A stretch of 64,000 nt of DNA from Escherichia phage W22. The stretch is taken from the sequence record PV159336, one strand, 5' to 3'. This document shows, one piece after another, positions 1,148 through 6,007 of the stretch. The notes beneath the pieces were generated by a model, which was given only the letters and a program-made list of their open reading frames with translations, was not told the origin of the DNA and did not search any database. Each line of letters starts with the position of its first letter. Position 1 is the first letter of the stretch. The position numbers were made by a program, and so were the translations under genes.

Positions 1148-2554
1148 ATGGCAACTTTTCGTGATAAGGTAGTTTCCGTAACCCTTACCTACGGTGCTAC
1201 TTCAATTAGTGAAACACAGTTTGATATCCCTCTAATTCTTACAGGGCATAATGTTACTGGCAATCTTGTAGATTATTTCACTTCTTCAGACGCACTTCTG
1301 CAAGCAGGTTTTGGCACTGCCGATCCAGCTTATAAAATGGCAAAACTACTATTTGACGGTCTGTTCGCACCAGAACAAGTTATCGTCGGTAAGCGTGATG
1401 TTTCTAAAACAACTCTAACTCCAGTAGTTGAATATAGTGCAACTTACGTTATCACTATTAAAGCAAATTCAAAAAGCAAGGACTTCAAGTTTGTTGCCGA
1501 TGATACTGCAACTGCTCAAGAGATTGTTGTTGGTTTAACAGAAATGATCAACGCAGACATGGTGTATAAAGAATTCTTCACTGTGTCAAACGATGGTAGT
1601 GTTATCACTGTAACCCCAGTTGCAGGTAAATACGCTACTATGGATAGTTCAGGATTCACAACTAAAGTAGAATATGCAAATGATATCTTAGAAGATATTG
1701 CTAAAATTGCAGATTATGAAAACAGTTGGTTCTGGTTACTATCTGATTCTCACGCAGAACAAGATATTATCGATCTAGCAGGTTATGTAGAAGAGCACGA
1801 TAAAGTGTATTTCTTCTCTACCTCGCAACCAGGTGTTCTAACTAAAGAAGAAGATAACATTCTAGAACGCTTAGGTGATATGGGCTACAATAACACTTGT
1901 ATGGCATTGTGGATGACTAACGCTGATACAGTGTTCCCAGAGGCTGCTGTAGTTGGTTCTATCTGCTCTGCAACACCAGGTACTACTACCCTGCATGGTA
2001 AAACCCTTGTTGGTATCGAGATTGAAAAACTTGGTCAGACAGCAGAAAACTTTATCGTTCAACAGAATGGTAATATTTACCGTAAAGAACACGGTGTTCT
2101 GTTCTACCGTGATGGTTTCATGGTTAGTGGTTTCTATGTTGACTATGTGGTACACGCTCTGTGGTTCAAAGCTCGTGTAGAAGAATCTCTGTTCGCTCTA
2201 TTTAAACAGCAATCTATGCTTGGTAGTGGTGTTAGAGCAACTTCTGCTGGTCTTGCTTTGATTCGTCAGGCTGTTACTGCAAACCCAATCCAAGTAGGTA
2301 TTAACAATGGTTCTATTGCCAATGAGGTAGTAACTTCAGAGGAAACAGGACTTCTGGTAAGCCTTAAACCTACTATCTATATCCCATCTCGTGCAGATAT
2401 GACTGATGCTCAAATCAATGCACGTTTGGTTGATGGTATGGTTATTGAATACGTATATGCTGGATTCTTCCACTATGTTAAAGTGCAGGTAAACGTTCTG
2501 ACGAACCGCACTGCAAATAGCCAGAATTCCAATAGCTCTACTGTATCTTCATAA
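1148..2554 (+). CDS. tail sheath protein (contractile tail)
   Basis: 468-aa protein directly upstream of tube gene; N-terminal region resembles sheath proteins; gene order sheath-tube-chaperone-tape measure. Confidence 0.6.
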   Translation: MATFRDKVVSVTLTYGATSISETQFDIPLILTGHNVTGNLVDYFTSSDALLQAGFGTADPAYKMAKLLFDGLFAPEQVIVGKRDVSKTTLTPVVEYSATYVITIKANSKSKDFKFVADDTATAQEIVVGLTEMINADMVYKEFFTVSNDGSVITVTPVAGKYATMDSSGFTTKVEYANDILEDIAKIADYENSWFWLLSDSHAEQDIIDLAGYVEEHDKVYFFSTSQPGVLTKEEDNILERLGDMGYNNTCMALWMTNADTVFPEAAVVGSICSATPGTTTLHGKTLVGIEIEKLGQTAENFIVQQNGNIYRKEHGVLFYRDGFMVSGFYVDYVVHALWFKARVEESLFALFKQQSMLGSGVRATSAGLALIRQAVTANPIQVGINNGSIANEVVTSEETGLLVSLKPTIYIPSRADMTDAQINARLVDGMVIEYVYAGFFHYVKVQVNVLTNRTANSQNSNSSTVSS

Positions 2555-2583: not shown

Positions 2584-2612
2584 ATGAAAAGTAGTATAAA
2601 AGGAGATCCACT

Positions 2613-3092
2613 TTGGATAAAATGCTTACTGGCGTAATGGCCTATGATCCTTCTCAAGTAATCCTGTCTTTGGGTGGTTGGGAACCTTGGGGTTTCGCCG
2701 CAGATACCAAAATTGTTATTAACAAAACTAACGATATCATCAACCCATATTCAGGTACTGATGGTGACGTTTCCTTGGCGCTTAGTCGTAACCGTTTAGG
2801 TACGCTAACAATGTCACTGCAACGTACTTCTCCAGCAAACGAAGTTCTTGCTGCTTATGCACAAACGATGTATTCTACTCGTCAAGTAGCATTTAGCGTA
2901 TATCTGGAAGACCCTCGCGGATATTATATCAGCACAATTGGTTGGATTCAAAGCCAACCGGACGATACTATTGGTGAAACTATTCAAGAAAACCAATGGG
3001 TAATTGGTCTTAAAGATGCAAGCCTACTTCGTTCTACTGTAGGTGTTGGTGTTAACGCACTTAACTCTATTAGTGCTCTAACTATTCAGTAA
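2613..3092 (+). CDS. tail tube protein
   Basis: 159-aa ORF after sheath; probable TTG start 7 nt after AAGGAG; size and position typical of tube protein. Confidence 0.55.
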   Translation: MDKMLTGVMAYDPSQVILSLGGWEPWGFAADTKIVINKTNDIINPYSGTDGDVSLALSRNRLGTLTMSLQRTSPANEVLAAYAQTMYSTRQVAFSVYLEDPRGYYISTIGWIQSQPDDTIGETIQENQWVIGLKDASLLRSTVGVGVNALNSISALTIQ

Positions 3093-3094
3093 TA

Positions 3095-3121
3095 AAAAGG
3101 GCAGAAATGCCCTTTATTTTT
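3095..3121 (+). terminator. rho-independent terminator after tube gene
   Basis: AAGGGCA-GAAA-TGCCCTT hairpin followed by TATTTTT. Confidence 0.5.
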
Positions 3122-3135
3122 AAAGAGAGGAAATA

Positions 3136-3618
3136 ATGGAACAACAAAAAGATAATACTATTGCAAAATTTGCTCGTCCAGAAGTAATGGTTGAAATTGA
3201 TCTGGATGAAGGACGCAGTGTAAAATTTAGAGTTCTCAAGTGGAGTCCAACTAAAGTTTTTGAAAGGATTCCAGAACTAGGTAGTGTACTGGCTGTTCCT
3301 ATGACAATGTATAATACTGCTCTTATGTCAGCAGACGAAGATCTAGAAGCTCGTATTGCTATGGCACTGATCCAATTATTCAGTGGTCTGGAAGAAAAAA
3401 ACTTAGCCGCATTCTTACGTAAAATTTTAGATGAAGTTTACACAGAAGCAGGACACAGTGTTTCCGATAATTTTGATGAATTGTTTTTTGCTCACCCAGA
3501 ATTAGTTGTTGACTTAGCTGCAAAAGTTCTTGAGGTGAACTATGCCCCTTTTTTCAAACGAGGTTTCGGAAAACTGTTGACCCAATTTCAAGGAATAGAG
3601 ACTCTAGCGAAGAGTTAA
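3136..3618 (+). CDS. tail assembly chaperone (gpG-like)
   Basis: 160-aa acidic protein immediately upstream of tape measure gene; followed by overlapping -1 frame ORF. Confidence 0.45.
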   Translation: MEQQKDNTIAKFARPEVMVEIDLDEGRSVKFRVLKWSPTKVFERIPELGSVLAVPMTMYNTALMSADEDLEARIAMALIQLFSGLEEKNLAAFLRKILDEVYTEAGHSVSDNFDELFFAHPELVVDLAAKVLEVNYAPFFKRGFGKLLTQFQGIETLAKS

Positions 3619-3893
3619 GTCCGGCAATTAAATCAGCAATTGAAATTGCCTCACAAACCCTTAGCTTGACATGGTATGAAGTAATTCTTTGTAAGGTAAT
3701 TAAGAATACCTCCGAAACCTTGTCCTCGTTAGATAATTATGGTGTAGATTATCTACTTAAAATTTATGAATATTTAACATTTGAAGACTATGTACAAGAT
3801 CTTCACGTTAAAGATGCGGATATTAAACGTGGTCAACAGAGAACAATAAGAGAACTGGATACGGCTATGAAAAAATTAATTCCAGATTCATAA
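3534..3893 (+). CDS. frameshift extension of tail assembly chaperone (gpGT-like), -1 frame
   Basis: Open -1 frame overlapping last 85 nt of chaperone ORF and running to 3893; ORF track reports only a TTG-initiated 75-aa piece (3666..3893). Confidence 0.35.
   Translation, partial: GELCPFFQTRFRKTVDPISRNRDSSEELSPAIKSAIEIASQTLSLTWYEVILCKVIKNTSETLSSLDNYGVDYLLKIYEYLTFEDYVQDLHVKDADIKRGQQRTIRELDTAMKKLIPDS
3549..3555 (+). other. candidate -1 programmed ribosomal frameshift slippery heptamer T_TTT_TTC
   Basis: Run of six T then C in zero frame of chaperone ORF (codons CCT TTT TTC); the -1 frame is open from 3534 to 3893. Confidence 0.35.
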
Positions 3894-3912
3894 GTAATAC
3901 GGAGGATTACCC

Positions 3913-5892
3913 TTGTTAGAAATTAACACTTCCAAGATTAAGAATACAGTAACGTTTACTGTAGATAAAGACAGTTTAAAAAATACTAAAGACGCAATTA
4001 AAAACCTTAAAACTTTTACAGAATCTATTGAACCATCTTTAAATATGACTAAAATGCGTCGTCAATTTAAAAGTATGGAAGAGTATGCTAAAAGAATAAG
4101 GCAGCAAATGTCAGGTCTTGGCGGCGGTAATCCTCCACCAATCCCACCAACCGGAGGTTCAAGAGGTGGTGGAAAAGGAGGAAGTGGTAGAGGTGGTTCT
4201 GGATCTTCTGGAGGACGTAAAACACCAGAGGAAAGAGCCGCAGAAGCCGCCGCTAAACGTGCAGCACTTGCTAATATGAAGCAAGACGATTTTAGTTTTA
4301 AAGCTATGCCTTTTACAAAAGCAGACAGCAGAATTCTAGAAAAATCTAAAAAGATTGTAGAAGAAACTGTTGAACTTTATCGTAAAGGTGTAATCACTAG
4401 CCAACAAATGAATAATACTTTGGCTAGACAGTTAGAAGAACTACGAAGATCTCATAGAGAGAAGAATGCACAACTTCTTGATGAAGAGAGAGCTAGACGT
4501 AGAATTGCCCGTCTGCAAGAAGCAGAAGATAAAAGAAGACAGCGTATCCGAGAAAGAGAAAGAAAGGATTTCGAACGTCAGCAAAGAAGAGAGAAAGAAG
4601 CAAGACAACGAGATAGACAACGTAAGCTATCTGGTGTAGGTAATGCTGCTATTGCTCTTAACCCTGCTATGTTTGGTGCTGCTCTTTTAGGTGCTGGTTT
4701 ATATCAAGGTATAAGCAAAATAGCTGAAAATATTACAGCGGCGGCAGAACGTATTAATATGGTTAGTAAAGGTGGTCAGAACGTACAGGTAAACCCTAAC
4801 GCAATTTTAACAATGCGTACTTGGGGTGAAATGAACGGTGTAGACTCTGCCAGCATTATTAAAGCCATTGACAATATTAAAGACGTTCGTGAACGTTTAG
4901 GTAATACTGTACTCCACTCTGAATTTGATGAAAAATCAGGTAAATGGAAAGGTGGAGACAGTGGTATTAATGAAATCATGAACCAATTTGGTTGGTCGAA
5001 AGAAGATGTTGCTAAATTCCAGAACAGACCTCTAGACTTTGTTCAAGCACTTGTTAATGAAGGTCAAAAAAGAGGAATGAACTCCGCGCAAATTGGTCGT
5101 TTGATGGAAAACCTTGGTGATGACTTAATGCACTACCAACGTATGTTTTTGGATAACGGTAAAGAGTATATGAAAGTCTTGGATATGTTAAAAAATTCAG
5201 GAGCAACTCTTAACGATGAAAACATCAAAGCAGCACAAGATTTTGTTAAACTAAGAGCAGAAATTAGTGCAGCAGGAGAAGGTTTTACCAATAACTTACT
5301 TGTAGGTTTTATGGATGGTTTAAAATCTGCACCAGATTTTGCAGAAAATATGAAAACTTTCCAAGAAGCTGCTCGTGGTCTTGGTGAAATGTCTGGTAGT
5401 ATTGTAAGTAGCCTTGCAAAAATTGCAAAATATTTCCTTGATTTTTCCAATAAGGTTGGGCCAAAAAACAATACTAAAGAAGCTGTAAGAGATTATTATA
5501 ATGGTACGCAGTATGGGTACGATGCACAGGTTGGTGGTAATCCTTGGGCTTATTGGCCTATTGGAAGAGATCAACATAAACCTGAAAATCAACCTTTAGG
5601 TGACTTTGATAGTAGTTTCTTAACTAGCGCCTTAAATCCAAGTGCTTCTAGTATTGGTTACAACAGACCTGATTTAACAGCATCTATGCTAACACCACGC
5701 CAAGGTGTTCCAGTACCGTTAAGTCTAGAGAATACGGTTGTTATCCCAGACAACGCATTCCAGATTAATGTTATTCCAGATGGTTATGGTTTTAGTAATT
5801 ATCTAGATGCGACAATGAATACCAGTTTTAGTAACTTCTCACAAGGTTTAACTCTTCAGTTAAGCAGTGGACAATCTTCTACTGGTGGTTAA
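3913..5892 (+). CDS. tail tape measure protein
   Basis: 659 aa; Gly-rich segment (GGGNPPPIPPTGGSRGGGKGGSGRGGSGSSGG), long Arg/Glu-rich coiled coil, position after chaperone pair; TTG start 6 nt after GGAGGA. Confidence 0.7.
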   Translation: MLEINTSKIKNTVTFTVDKDSLKNTKDAIKNLKTFTESIEPSLNMTKMRRQFKSMEEYAKRIRQQMSGLGGGNPPPIPPTGGSRGGGKGGSGRGGSGSSGGRKTPEERAAEAAAKRAALANMKQDDFSFKAMPFTKADSRILEKSKKIVEETVELYRKGVITSQQMNNTLARQLEELRRSHREKNAQLLDEERARRRIARLQEAEDKRRQRIRERERKDFERQQRREKEARQRDRQRKLSGVGNAAIALNPAMFGAALLGAGLYQGISKIAENITAAAERINMVSKGGQNVQVNPNAILTMRTWGEMNGVDSASIIKAIDNIKDVRERLGNTVLHSEFDEKSGKWKGGDSGINEIMNQFGWSKEDVAKFQNRPLDFVQALVNEGQKRGMNSAQIGRLMENLGDDLMHYQRMFLDNGKEYMKVLDMLKNSGATLNDENIKAAQDFVKLRAEISAAGEGFTNNLLVGFMDGLKSAPDFAENMKTFQEAARGLGEMSGSIVSSLAKIAKYFLDFSNKVGPKNNTKEAVRDYYNGTQYGYDAQVGGNPWAYWPIGRDQHKPENQPLGDFDSSFLTSALNPSASSIGYNRPDLTASMLTPRQGVPVPLSLENTVVIPDNAFQINVIPDGYGFSNYLDATMNTSFSNFSQGLTLQLSSGQSSTGG

Positions 5893-5897
5893 TGCAT

Positions 5898-5928
5898 AAA
5901 GCCTCGCTTCGGCGGGGCTTTTTATTTG
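5898..5928 (+). terminator. rho-independent terminator after tape measure gene
   Basis: AAGCCTCGC-TTCG-GCGGGGCTT hairpin followed by TTTATTTG. Confidence 0.55.
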
Positions 5929-5930
5929 TC

Positions 5931-5960
5931 TTGACAAAGAGTTGTTTTTCGTGATAAAAT
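5931..5960 (+). promoter_or_regulatory. sigma70-like promoter with extended -10
   Basis: -35 TTGACA (5931-5936), 18-nt spacer, TG at 5952-5953, -10 TAAAAT (5955-5960); same TGTGATAAAATGA string recurs at 17404. Confidence 0.4.
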
Positions 5961-6007
5961 GAGTGATAAGGGAGAATGTTTCTTATCACATTAAGAGGTA
6001 AAATTAT

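What the first reader, a model, noticed from the sequence alone, without database searches (positions are those of the whole stretch)
3534..3893. Candidate -1 programmed frameshift in the tail assembly chaperone upstream of the tape measure gene
The zero frame of 3136..3618 contains the heptamer T_TTT_TTC (3549..3555). The -1 frame is open from 3534 and continues to 3893, which would give a ~250-aa fusion in place of the 160-aa protein. This mirrors the conserved G/GT-type frameshift of tailed phages. The ORF track only shows the distal part as a TTG-initiated 75-aa ORF.
Basis: partly seen in the sequence, partly recalled or inferred. Interest (0 to 1): 0.45.

Follow-up and report, generated by a model that had tools for sequence, protein, structure and literature searches.

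The report
Tail chaperone -1 frameshift, phi92-like phage
The window comes from a phi92-like E. coli phage, and its tail assembly chaperone gene very probably makes a second, longer protein through a conserved -1 ribosomal slip on CCCTTTTTTC; the device is a well-known one, but public annotations of this phage group leave it out.

Summary
The ORF at 3136..3618 encodes a Pfam Phage_TAC_15 protein, the homologue of phi92 gp132. It carries the in-frame heptamer T_TTT_TTC at 3549..3555, overlapped by a second heptamer, C_CCT_TTT, at 3546..3552. The -1 frame is open from 3534 to 3893, which gives a 252-aa fusion.

In 62 related loci, some only ~25-35% identical in protein, the -1 frame stays open 212-293 nt past the zero-frame stop in every complete locus. 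The +1 frame closes within 4-73 nt.

T_TTT_TTC is invariant at synonymous sites in 44/44 distinct ORFs. A distant clade (Rheinheimera Barbavirus and two metagenomic loci) has lambda's G_GGA_AAG at the same place.

The annotated TTG start at 3666 has no Shine-Dalgarno sequence and reads TTA in relatives. Conserved -1-frame codons with third-position variation begin right after the zero-frame stop, upstream of any start codon.

No conserved downstream RNA structure was found.

This is a lambda G/GT- or P2 E/E+E'-type frameshift, so a new member of a known kind. None of the 20 GenBank records inspected annotates it, and 45 database homologues are all ~160 aa. A 2025 paper proposes the same device in sister families. 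Expression itself was not tested.

The parts
2613..3092 (+). Tail tube gene (phi92 gp131 homologue). It marks the upstream boundary of the chaperone locus.
   Evidence: Pfam PF11681 and PHROG 280. Annotated as tail tube in MZ501100. gp131 is the tube protein in the phi92 cryo-EM paper PMC13450770.
3096..3115 (+). Terminator-like hairpin between the tube gene and the chaperone gene (context only; it could lower chaperone expression relative to tube).
   Evidence: Consensus scan. Also annotated as a terminator in OX090893.
3136..3618 (+). Zero-frame ORF for the short tail assembly chaperone (TAC-N, 160 aa; phi92 gp132 homologue). ATG start preceded by GAGAGGA.
   Evidence: Pfam PF21822 Phage_TAC_15 at 78.8 bits (cut-off 22). 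PHROG 3840 at 4.4e-54.
3532..3536 (+). SD-like GAGGT, 9-12 nt upstream of the slippery run. A possible upstream stimulator; this is inferred only.
   Evidence: The Glu codon here is GAG in all 9 distinct Stephanstirmvirinae-like contexts and in 32 of 37 Glu codons overall, although GAG makes up only 23% of Glu codons in this window. The motif is absent in the phiTE-like and some other lineages.
3546..3555 (+). Slippery run C_CCT_TTT_TTC, made of two overlapping canonical -1 heptamers (3546..3552 and 3549..3555). Slipping on either gives the same protein.
   Evidence: In 44 distinct ORFs the third position of codon 138 is T in 44/44, codon 139 is TTT in 44/44 and codon 140 is TTC in 44/44, whatever the preceding amino acid. 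H_HH.U_UU.Y motifs are among the most efficient in E. coli (PMC4066793).
3562..3567 (+). GGT TTC, read as Gly-Phe in the zero frame and as part of Arg-Phe-Arg in the -1 frame. Its synonymous sites do not vary, which is the signature of dual coding.
   Evidence: GGT in 44/44 and TTC in 38/38 Phe codons. R143 F144 R145 are invariant in the fusion alignment.
3555..3893 (+). The -1 frame extension: 112 codons plus TAA. It holds a variable linker and then a conserved C-terminal domain (..PAIxxAIxxAxxTxSLxWYEVILCK..LDxYGVDYLLKxYEYL..). Together with residues 1-140 it gives the 252-aa long form (TAC-NC). It includes the annotated 'gp133' ORF at 3666..3893.
   Evidence: PHROG 16039 and 10409, both of unknown function.
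3913..5892 (+). Tape measure protein gene (phi92 gp134 homologue). It marks the downstream boundary of the locus.
   Evidence: PHROG 16051, full length. Public annotations. gp134 is the tape measure protein in PMC13450770.

Best explanation
Most ribosomes translating the chaperone gene (3136..3618) finish in frame and make the 160-aa short chaperone. A minority slip back one base while Pro/Phe/Phe tRNAs sit on C_CCT_TTT_TTC (3546..3555). They then read ..NYAPFF-QTRFRK.. in the -1 frame to TAA at 3891-3893 and make a 252-aa long form, which has the same N-terminal chaperone domain plus a C-terminal domain encoded at 3555..3890.

By analogy with lambda gpG/gpGT, the shared N domain would coat the tape measure protein (gene 3913..5892). 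The extra C domain would recruit the tube protein (gene 2613..3092), and the frameshift rate would fix the ratio of the two forms.

Shown here:
- the frame architecture;
- nucleotide-level conservation of the slip site;
- translation-type selection on the -1 frame upstream of any start codon;
- membership of the N domain in a tail assembly chaperone family.

Inferred:
- that the slip is ribosomal;
- its efficiency;
- the binding partners of the two domains.
For: 1. Gene order is tube, chaperone, -1 ORF, tape measure. The N part matches Pfam PF21822 (E 6.7e-22) and PHROG 3840.

2. In 62 loci from Stephanstirmvirinae, Vequintavirinae, Plateaulakevirus, Barbavirus and metagenomes, the -1 frame is open 212-293 nt past the zero-frame stop in every complete locus, whereas the +1 frame closes after 4-73 nt. 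Some of these loci are only ~25-35% identical in protein.

3. T_TTT_TTC is invariant and in phase in all 58 loci of that type. Its synonymous sites are fixed in 44/44 distinct ORFs, while other conserved residues (L127, Y136) vary freely in codon choice.

4. The slip site has turned over while the architecture is kept. Barbavirus and two metagenomic relatives carry G_GGA_AAG, lambda's heptamer, two codons downstream of the Phe-Phe position.

5. In the window the -1 frame has no ATG, GTG or TTG from 3534 to 3665. The TTG at 3666 reads TTA in two relatives and has no SD. Variable sites switch from zero-frame third positions in the overlap (14/5/6) to -1-frame third positions (6/4/13) directly after the zero-frame stop.

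6. Both heptamers fall in the high-efficiency class measured in E. coli (PMC4066793).

7. In two relatives the -1 frame opens at, or one codon before, the heptamer, which fixes the upstream limit of the shift (L027; L061).
Against: There is no direct evidence of the fusion protein: no proteomics, reporter assay or ribosome profiling. No significant or conserved downstream RNA structure was found. Single-sequence z-scores are 0.23 and -1.5, and RNAalifold predicts 0 pairs in 9 relatives, so the efficiency may be low. The upstream SD-like GAGG is not conserved in all lineages. One distant locus (L050) has G_GGG_GAA, which is not a canonical heptamer. The function of the C domain rests on analogy only; it has no Pfam or PDB match.
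Confidence: 0.88

Rival explanations
1. Transcriptional slippage. RNA polymerase adds one extra U on the T6 run (3549..3554), giving a minority mRNA in which normal translation produces the same 252-aa protein.
For: The site is a homopolymeric T6 run. The product would be identical..PFFQTR.. (sequence). No RNA stimulator for ribosomal slipping was found. According to PMC12846349, Vladimirov et al. 2022 proposed a non-translational route for T4-like chaperones; that paper is not held.
Against: Six T is short for efficient polymerase slippage in bacteria (own knowledge). The run is exactly T6 followed by C and in the same codon phase in 44/44 distinct ORFs, and never lengthens, which is a constraint on tRNA re-pairing rather than on run length. 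The Barbavirus clade replaces it with G_GGA_AAG, which is not a slippage-prone homopolymer.
Confidence: 0.06
2. There are two independent genes, as in GenBank. 'gp133' starts on its own at TTG 3666 (or a later start) and makes a separate 75-aa protein, and no frameshift occurs.
For: This is how the records inspected annotate it. PHROG 16039 and 10409 are built from such short ORFs.
Against: There is no SD before 3666 (attgcctcacaaacccttagc), whereas the neighbouring genes have GGAG-type sites. The TTG reads TTA in L004 and L021, and the first start-like codon falls at codon 38, 40 or 50 depending on the phage. Conserved residues with synonymous variation (P, A, I, A, I, A, T) lie upstream of it. 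Annotators choose different starts or call no gene at all.
Confidence: 0.04
3. The overlap is a chance open frame or a sequencing indel, with no biological meaning.
For: AT-rich genomes have many T runs, and about 0.12 heptamers are expected by chance in the overlap.
Against: The same two-frame layout appears in 62 independently sequenced loci, with protein-level conservation of the -1 product. It is the only site of its kind in the 64-kb window.
Confidence: 0.02

Closest known systems
Phage lambda gpG/gpGT tail assembly chaperone frameshift (Levin, Hendrix and Casjens 1993; Xu, Hendrix and Duda 2004, 2013, 2014; reviewed in PMC5009743)
   Same: Two overlapping ORFs lie between the major tail/tube gene and the tape measure gene. 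[quoted passage not shown] A distant branch of this same protein family uses lambda's exact heptamer, G_GGA_AAG.
   Different: The host phage is a large (~148 kb) contractile-tailed virulent phage. The heptamer is T_TTT_TTC, overlapped by C_CCT_TTT. The chaperone belongs to Pfam PF21822 and was not compared with gpG. The C domain has no detectable similarity to anything annotated.
Phage P2 E / E+E' frameshift (Christie et al. 2002, as cited in PMC3091744)
   Same: It is a myovirus. It has a T-run heptamer (TTTTTTG in P2), a -1 shift and no downstream RNA structure. The genes lie between the tube gene and the tape measure gene.
   Different: The last base of the heptamer is C rather than G. The proteins are larger (160/252 aa against 91/142 aa). 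No sequence relationship was shown.
Proposed -1 frameshift in the chaperone genes of Vandenendeviridae (Pakpunavirus, phage Adele) and Andersonviridae (Mooglevirus) (PMC12846349, Dec 2025)
   Same: These are sister clades of Vequintavirinae and Stephanstirmvirinae according to that paper. They show the same locus layout, the same argument from an uninterrupted -1 frame, and a conserved GTTTTT motif at the 3' end of the short-form gene. Vequintavirinae here read tGTTTTTTC.
   Different: That paper did not examine the frameshift in Stephanstirmvirinae or Vequintavirinae. tblastn from the window did not reach those families, so homology of the two sites is likely but was not shown here.
E. coli dnaX -1 frameshift
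   Same: There is a possible SD-like element (GAGGT) about 9-12 nt upstream of the slippery run, the range in which SD-like sequences were searched for or found to stimulate (6-17 nt, PMC4066793).
   Different: dnaX also needs a strong downstream hairpin and produces a shorter product. Here no hairpin was found, and the SD-like motif is specific to some lineages.

Membership tests
G/GT-type tail assembly chaperone frameshift of long-tailed phages (Xu et al. 2004) | A pair of overlapping ORFs located between the major tail/tube gene and the tape measure gene | tested here: met
   Tube 2613..3092, ORF 3136..3618, -1 ORF to 3893, tape measure gene 3913..5892.
G/GT-type tail assembly chaperone frameshift of long-tailed phages (Xu et al. 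2004) | The upstream ORF encodes a tail assembly chaperone | tested here: met
   Pfam PF21822 Phage_TAC_15 at 78.8 bits (cut-off 22). PHROG 3840 'tail assembly chaperone' at 4.4e-54. This is family assignment by sequence; chaperone activity was not tested.
G/GT-type tail assembly chaperone frameshift of long-tailed phages (Xu et al. 2004) | A canonical slippery sequence (X_XXY_YYZ), in phase, inside the overlap | tested here: met
   C_CCT_TTT at 3546..3552 and T_TTT_TTC at 3549..3555. Both are in the efficient class in E. coli.
G/GT-type tail assembly chaperone frameshift of long-tailed phages (Xu et al. 2004) | The downstream frame has no start codon or ribosome binding site of its own that covers the conserved part | tested here: met
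   No ATG, GTG or TTG in the -1 frame from 3534 to 3665. TTG 3666 has no SD and is not conserved.
G/GT-type tail assembly chaperone frameshift of long-tailed phages (Xu et al. 2004) | The frame arrangement and slip site are conserved in divergent relatives | tested here: met
   62 loci. The heptamer's synonymous sites are fixed in 44/44 distinct ORFs. An alternative heptamer, G_GGA_AAG, is found in a distant clade.
G/GT-type tail assembly chaperone frameshift of long-tailed phages (Xu et al. 2004) | Both the short form and a low-abundance fusion protein are actually made | not testable with these tools
   This needs proteomics, a reporter assay or ribosome profiling. All 45 database homologues are ~160 aa and none is a fused entry.
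G/GT-type tail assembly chaperone frameshift of long-tailed phages (Xu et al. 2004) | Both products are required for tail assembly but absent from the virion; the N domain binds the tape measure protein and the C domain binds the tube protein | not testable with these tools
   The phi92 cryo-EM paper lists no gp132 or gp133 among the modelled virion proteins. This is consistent with the feature but is not a test.
Structure-stimulated -1 frameshift signals (dnaX / IS3 type) | A stable, conserved hairpin or pseudoknot 5-9 nt downstream of the heptamer | tested here: not met
   Folding z-scores are 0.23 (70 nt) and -1.54 (100 nt). RNAalifold gives 0 pairs in 9 relatives. No Rfam family reaches its threshold. 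Only the distant locus L046 has an 11-bp stem 6 nt downstream (z -2.7).
Structure-stimulated -1 frameshift signals (dnaX / IS3 type) | An SD-like sequence upstream of the heptamer | tested here: inconclusive
   GAGGT at 3532..3536. GAG is used in 32 of 37 Glu codons at this position against 23% genome-wide, but the motif is missing in several lineages.

The most novel reading that the evidence does not exclude
The signal may be an unusual, structure-free one. In this reading it consists of a ten-base double slippery run (C_CCT_TTT_TTC), an upstream SD-like GAGG held at a rare Glu codon, and an invariant GGUUUCG 6-9 nt downstream that acts at the RNA or nascent-peptide level rather than merely being dual-coded. 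Because the same protein family swapped T_TTT_TTC for G_GGA_AAG (the latter with a downstream stem in L046), it would offer a natural experiment on how frameshift efficiency is re-tuned when the slip site changes.
Probability: 0.15. Interest if true: 0.45.

Novelty: new member of a known kind. Interest (0 to 1): 0.3.

Why it matters
The main value is a correction to annotation.

- At least 370 phage records match this locus. They include therapeutic-candidate coliphages of the phi92, Phapecoctavirus and rV5 groups.
- In all 20 records inspected, a 'hypothetical protein' of inconsistent length, or no gene at all, stands where the C-terminal domain of a frameshifted chaperone should be.
- PHROG families 16039 and 10409 ('unknown function') are this domain.

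The finding also extends the lambda G/GT rule to another large clade of big virulent myoviruses. The conserved slip site is a clean target for engineering or for testing how chaperone ratio controls tail assembly. It does not change any concept.

Tried and rejected
- **Downstream stimulatory structure.** Single-sequence folds of the window and six relatives, and RNAalifold on 9 relatives, found nothing significant or conserved in the window's group.
- **Rfam.** No family reaches its gathering threshold in the window. One sub-threshold CRISPR-DR35 hit on the minus strand at 3568..3602 (25.1 bits against 35) is judged to be chance.
- **Structure prediction.** The C part alone, without an alignment, gave pLDDT 45.9, too poor for a fold search, so none was run.
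- **PDB.** A profile search with the fusion alignment found no hit at E <= 1.
- **Natural in-frame fusions or annotated joins.** All 45 hits among 5.8 billion proteins are ~160 aa.
- **Literature.** No held paper reports this frameshift for phi92-like or rV5-like phages. The rV5 proteomics paper and the phi92 cryo-EM paper do not mention a chaperone or a frameshift. Vladimirov et al. 2022 is not held.
- **tblastn E-value differences between near-identical relatives** (1e-114 against 1e-68). I suspected in-frame fusions, but L004 and L021 have the normal two-frame layout.

Full report
**What the window is.** Bases 2600..6000 are 99.6% identical to Escherichia phage pEC-M2929-1AR.1 and 98.5-99.5% identical to the other 29 records listed, which include Justusliebigvirus phages (phi92-like, Stephanstirmvirinae, ~148-kb myoviruses). 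Public records and family searches give the local gene order:

| Gene | Coordinates | Support |
|---|---|---|
| Sheath | 1148..2554 | Pfam DUF3383; annotated as tail sheath in public records |
| Tube (gp131) | 2613..3092 | Pfam PF11681 |
| Chaperone (gp132 homologue) | 3136..3618 | Pfam PF21822 Phage_TAC_15, E 6.7e-22; PHROG 3840 |
| Short ORF 'gp133' | 3666..3893 | annotated ORF only |
| Tape measure (gp134) | 3913..5892 | PHROG 16051 |

The phi92 cryo-EM paper confirms gp131 as the tube protein and gp134 as the tape measure protein. It does not mention gp132, gp133, a chaperone or a frameshift (PMC13450770).

**Checking the observation.** Every coordinate in the finding is correct.
- The zero frame reads ..AAC TAT GCC CCT TTT TTC AAA.., so T_TTT_TTC lies at 3549..3555.
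- The -1 frame has TGA at 3531-3533 and is then open to TAA at 3891-3893.
- The fusion is 140 + 112 = 252 aa.
- A second canonical heptamer, C_CCT_TTT (3546..3552), overlaps the first. Because of the T run, a slip on either gives the same protein, ..NYAPFFQTRFRK...
- Within the 64-kb window, ORFs of >=150 aa on both strands hold 81 in-frame X_XXY_YYZ heptamers. The open -1 frame after them has a median of 5 codons. Only the two at this site exceed 60 codons (112 and 113), and T_TTT_TTC occurs in phase only here.

**Comparative test.** tblastn with the 252-aa fusion finds 370 phage records, and 290 of them cover at least 80% of it. In nearly all rows listed the match comes in two pieces, as expected for two reading frames.

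I read 62 loci. They cover:
- Justusliebigvirus, Phapecoctavirus and 'Sichuanvirus';
- Vequintavirinae (rV5, phiTE, GAP31, KB57, Hena1, SSBI34, ABPH49, LTH01);
- Aeromonas Plateaulakevirus and Rheinheimera Barbavirus;
- IMG/VR, JGI and Logan metagenomic contigs.

In every complete locus the -1 frame continues 212-293 nt past the zero-frame stop and ends just before the next gene. The +1 frame closes after 4-73 nt. The fused proteins align over their whole length at 24-32% identity between the subfamilies. Invariant residues lie on both sides of the junction: N135, Y136, F139, F140, then R143, F144, R145, then A168, L178, W180, L208, E212, Y213.

**The slip site is conserved as nucleotides, not only as amino acids.** In 44 distinct chaperone ORFs:
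- the third base of the codon before Phe-Phe is T in 44/44, whether that codon is Pro (CCT), Cys (TGT) or Ser (AGT);
- the two Phe codons are TTT and then TTC in 44/44;
- three codons on, Gly is GGT in 44/44 and Phe is TTC in 38/38 Phe codons.

Other conserved residues use many codons: L127 uses six, and Y136 splits TAT 14 to TAC 30. The fixed GGT TTC is what dual coding predicts, because any synonymous change there would alter the invariant Arg-Phe-Arg of the -1 frame.

In two phages the -1 frame opens at, or one codon before, the heptamer, so the shift cannot occur further upstream (L027; L061).

**The slip site has turned over.** Rheinheimera phage Barba18A and two metagenomic relatives lack the T run. 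They carry G_GGA_AAG in phase two codons downstream (HYGC-L/I-x-S-G-K), with the same open -1 frame. This is lambda's heptamer. One of these loci has an 11-bp stem starting 6 nt after it (z -2.7). A third relative (L050) has G_GGG_GAA, which is not canonical. Replacing one canonical heptamer by another while keeping the architecture argues for ribosomal frameshifting and against polymerase slippage on a homopolymer.

**The annotated 'gp133' is not an independent gene.**
- The -1 frame has no ATG, GTG or TTG between 3534 and 3665.
- The TTG at 3666 follows attgcctcacaaacccttagc, which has no SD. The neighbouring genes have GAGAGGA, GGAGG, AGGAG or GGAG.
- That codon reads TTA in L004 and L021. 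The first start-like codon falls at codon 38, 40 or 50 in different phages, and in L021 it lies inside the conserved motif.
- Codons 24-39 of the extension (3618..3665) encode S-P-A-I-K-S-A-I-E-I-A-S-Q-T-L-S and show synonymous variation such as CCG/CCG/CCT/CCA and GCA/GCT/GCG/GCC.
- Variable sites by -1-frame codon position are 14/5/6 in the overlap, where -1-frame position 1 is the zero-frame third position. They change to 6/4/13 immediately after the zero-frame stop and to 21/12/51 further on.
- Annotators disagree. They aa from TTG, 57 aa in RefSeq PD06, other starts in rV5-like phages, or no gene at all. None of the 20 records carries a joined CDS.
- All 45 homologues found among 5.8 billion proteins are ~160 aa.

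**Mechanism.** In the E. coli survey of all heptamers, H_HH.U_UU.Y motifs are among the most efficient; this class includes both U_UU.U_UU.C and C_CC.U_UU.U. U_UU.U_UU.C is under-represented in genes, shifts above 0.1% without stimulators, and is used by IS elements. U_UU.Y is the second-best A-site tetramer (PMC4066793).

I found no downstream stimulator. Folding z-scores are 0.23 and -1.54, RNAalifold predicts no pairs across nine relatives, and no Rfam family reaches its threshold. Phage P2's TTTTTTG site likewise has no downstream structure (PMC3091744).

A possible upstream stimulator is GAGGT at 3532..3536, 9-12 nt before the run. The Glu codon there is GAG in all nine Stephanstirmvirinae-like contexts and in 32 of 37 Glu codons overall, against 23% GAG usage in this window. 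The motif is missing in phiTE-like and other lineages, so this remains inconclusive.

The functional model rests on lambda gpG/gpGT (PMC5009743): the N domain binds the tape measure protein, the C domain recruits the tube protein, and the ratio is set by slip frequency. None of this was tested here. The C domain has no Pfam or PDB match and belongs to PHROGs of unknown function.

**Rivals.**
- Transcriptional slippage on T6 would give the same protein and cannot be excluded without RNA data. The fixed length and phase of the run and the G_GGA_AAG replacement count against it.
- Independent initiation is contradicted by the start-codon, SD and selection data above.
- Chance or sequencing error is contradicted by 62 independent loci.

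**Novelty.** The device is the classic one (lambda G/GT, P2 E/E+E'). A December 2025 paper makes the same bioinformatic argument, with a conserved GTTTTT motif, for the sister families Vandenendeviridae and Andersonviridae. It names Vequintavirinae and Stephanstirmvirinae as relatives but does not examine their chaperone locus (PMC12846349). I found no held paper that reports the frameshift for phi92-like or rV5-like phages. I therefore rate it a new member of a known kind. It is well supported, useful for annotation and conceptually unsurprising. Interest is 0.3.

Noticed in passing
window 3096..3115: A terminator-like hairpin (8-bp stem followed by a T run) lies between the tube gene and the chaperone gene, and another lies after the tape measure gene at 5898..5921. 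Together they may set the expression step-down from tube protein to chaperone and tape measure protein.
   Followed up: partly
window 3568..3602 (minus strand): A single sub-threshold Rfam match to CRISPR-DR35 (25.1 bits against a gathering score of 35, E 0.011) lies inside the dual-coded region just downstream of the slip site. It is not conserved in relatives beyond the coding constraint and is probably chance.
   Followed up: partly
GenBank MG065656, MG065639, MG065682, MG065676, MG065647 (hits H33, H110, H64, H73, H128): Unannotated records named 'Campylobacter phage' (host C. jejuni) match this locus with the same tblastn statistics as E. coli Justusliebigvirus or rV5-like phages. This suggests mislabelled or contaminant genomes.
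   Followed up: no
L059 1589..2227 (Rheinheimera phage Barba18A, NC_048189): An HNH endonuclease gene on the opposite strand is inserted between the end of the chaperone -1 ORF and the tape measure gene, a junction that is otherwise tight.
   Followed up: no
L046 1819..1883 (IMG/VR UViG_3300034110_000041): In a relative that uses G_GGA_AAG, an 11-bp stem (AAGAGCCUGUU...AACAGGCUCUU) starts 6 nt after the heptamer (z -2.7). This is a candidate frameshift stimulator that is absent from the T_TTT_TTC lineages.
   Followed up: partly
L050 about 1800..1830 (IMG/VR UViG_3300048672_000060): One distant relative has G_GGG_GAA at the slip position. It is not a canonical X_XXY_YYZ heptamer, yet the locus keeps the open -1 frame. 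It may shift by P-site slippage on the G run or may be a weakened site.
   Followed up: no
L011 1324..1910 (phage phiTE, JQ015307): In phiTE, the -1 ORF is followed by an annotated terminator and two small hypothetical genes, not directly by the tape measure gene.
   Followed up: no
L010 586..1059 (rV5_ev168, LR694610): The short chaperone is annotated as 'structural protein' in an rV5 record, which would be unusual for an assembly chaperone. The rV5 proteomics paper (PMC3606486) contains none of the words 'chaperone', 'tape measure', 'slippery' or 'translational'.
   Followed up: partly
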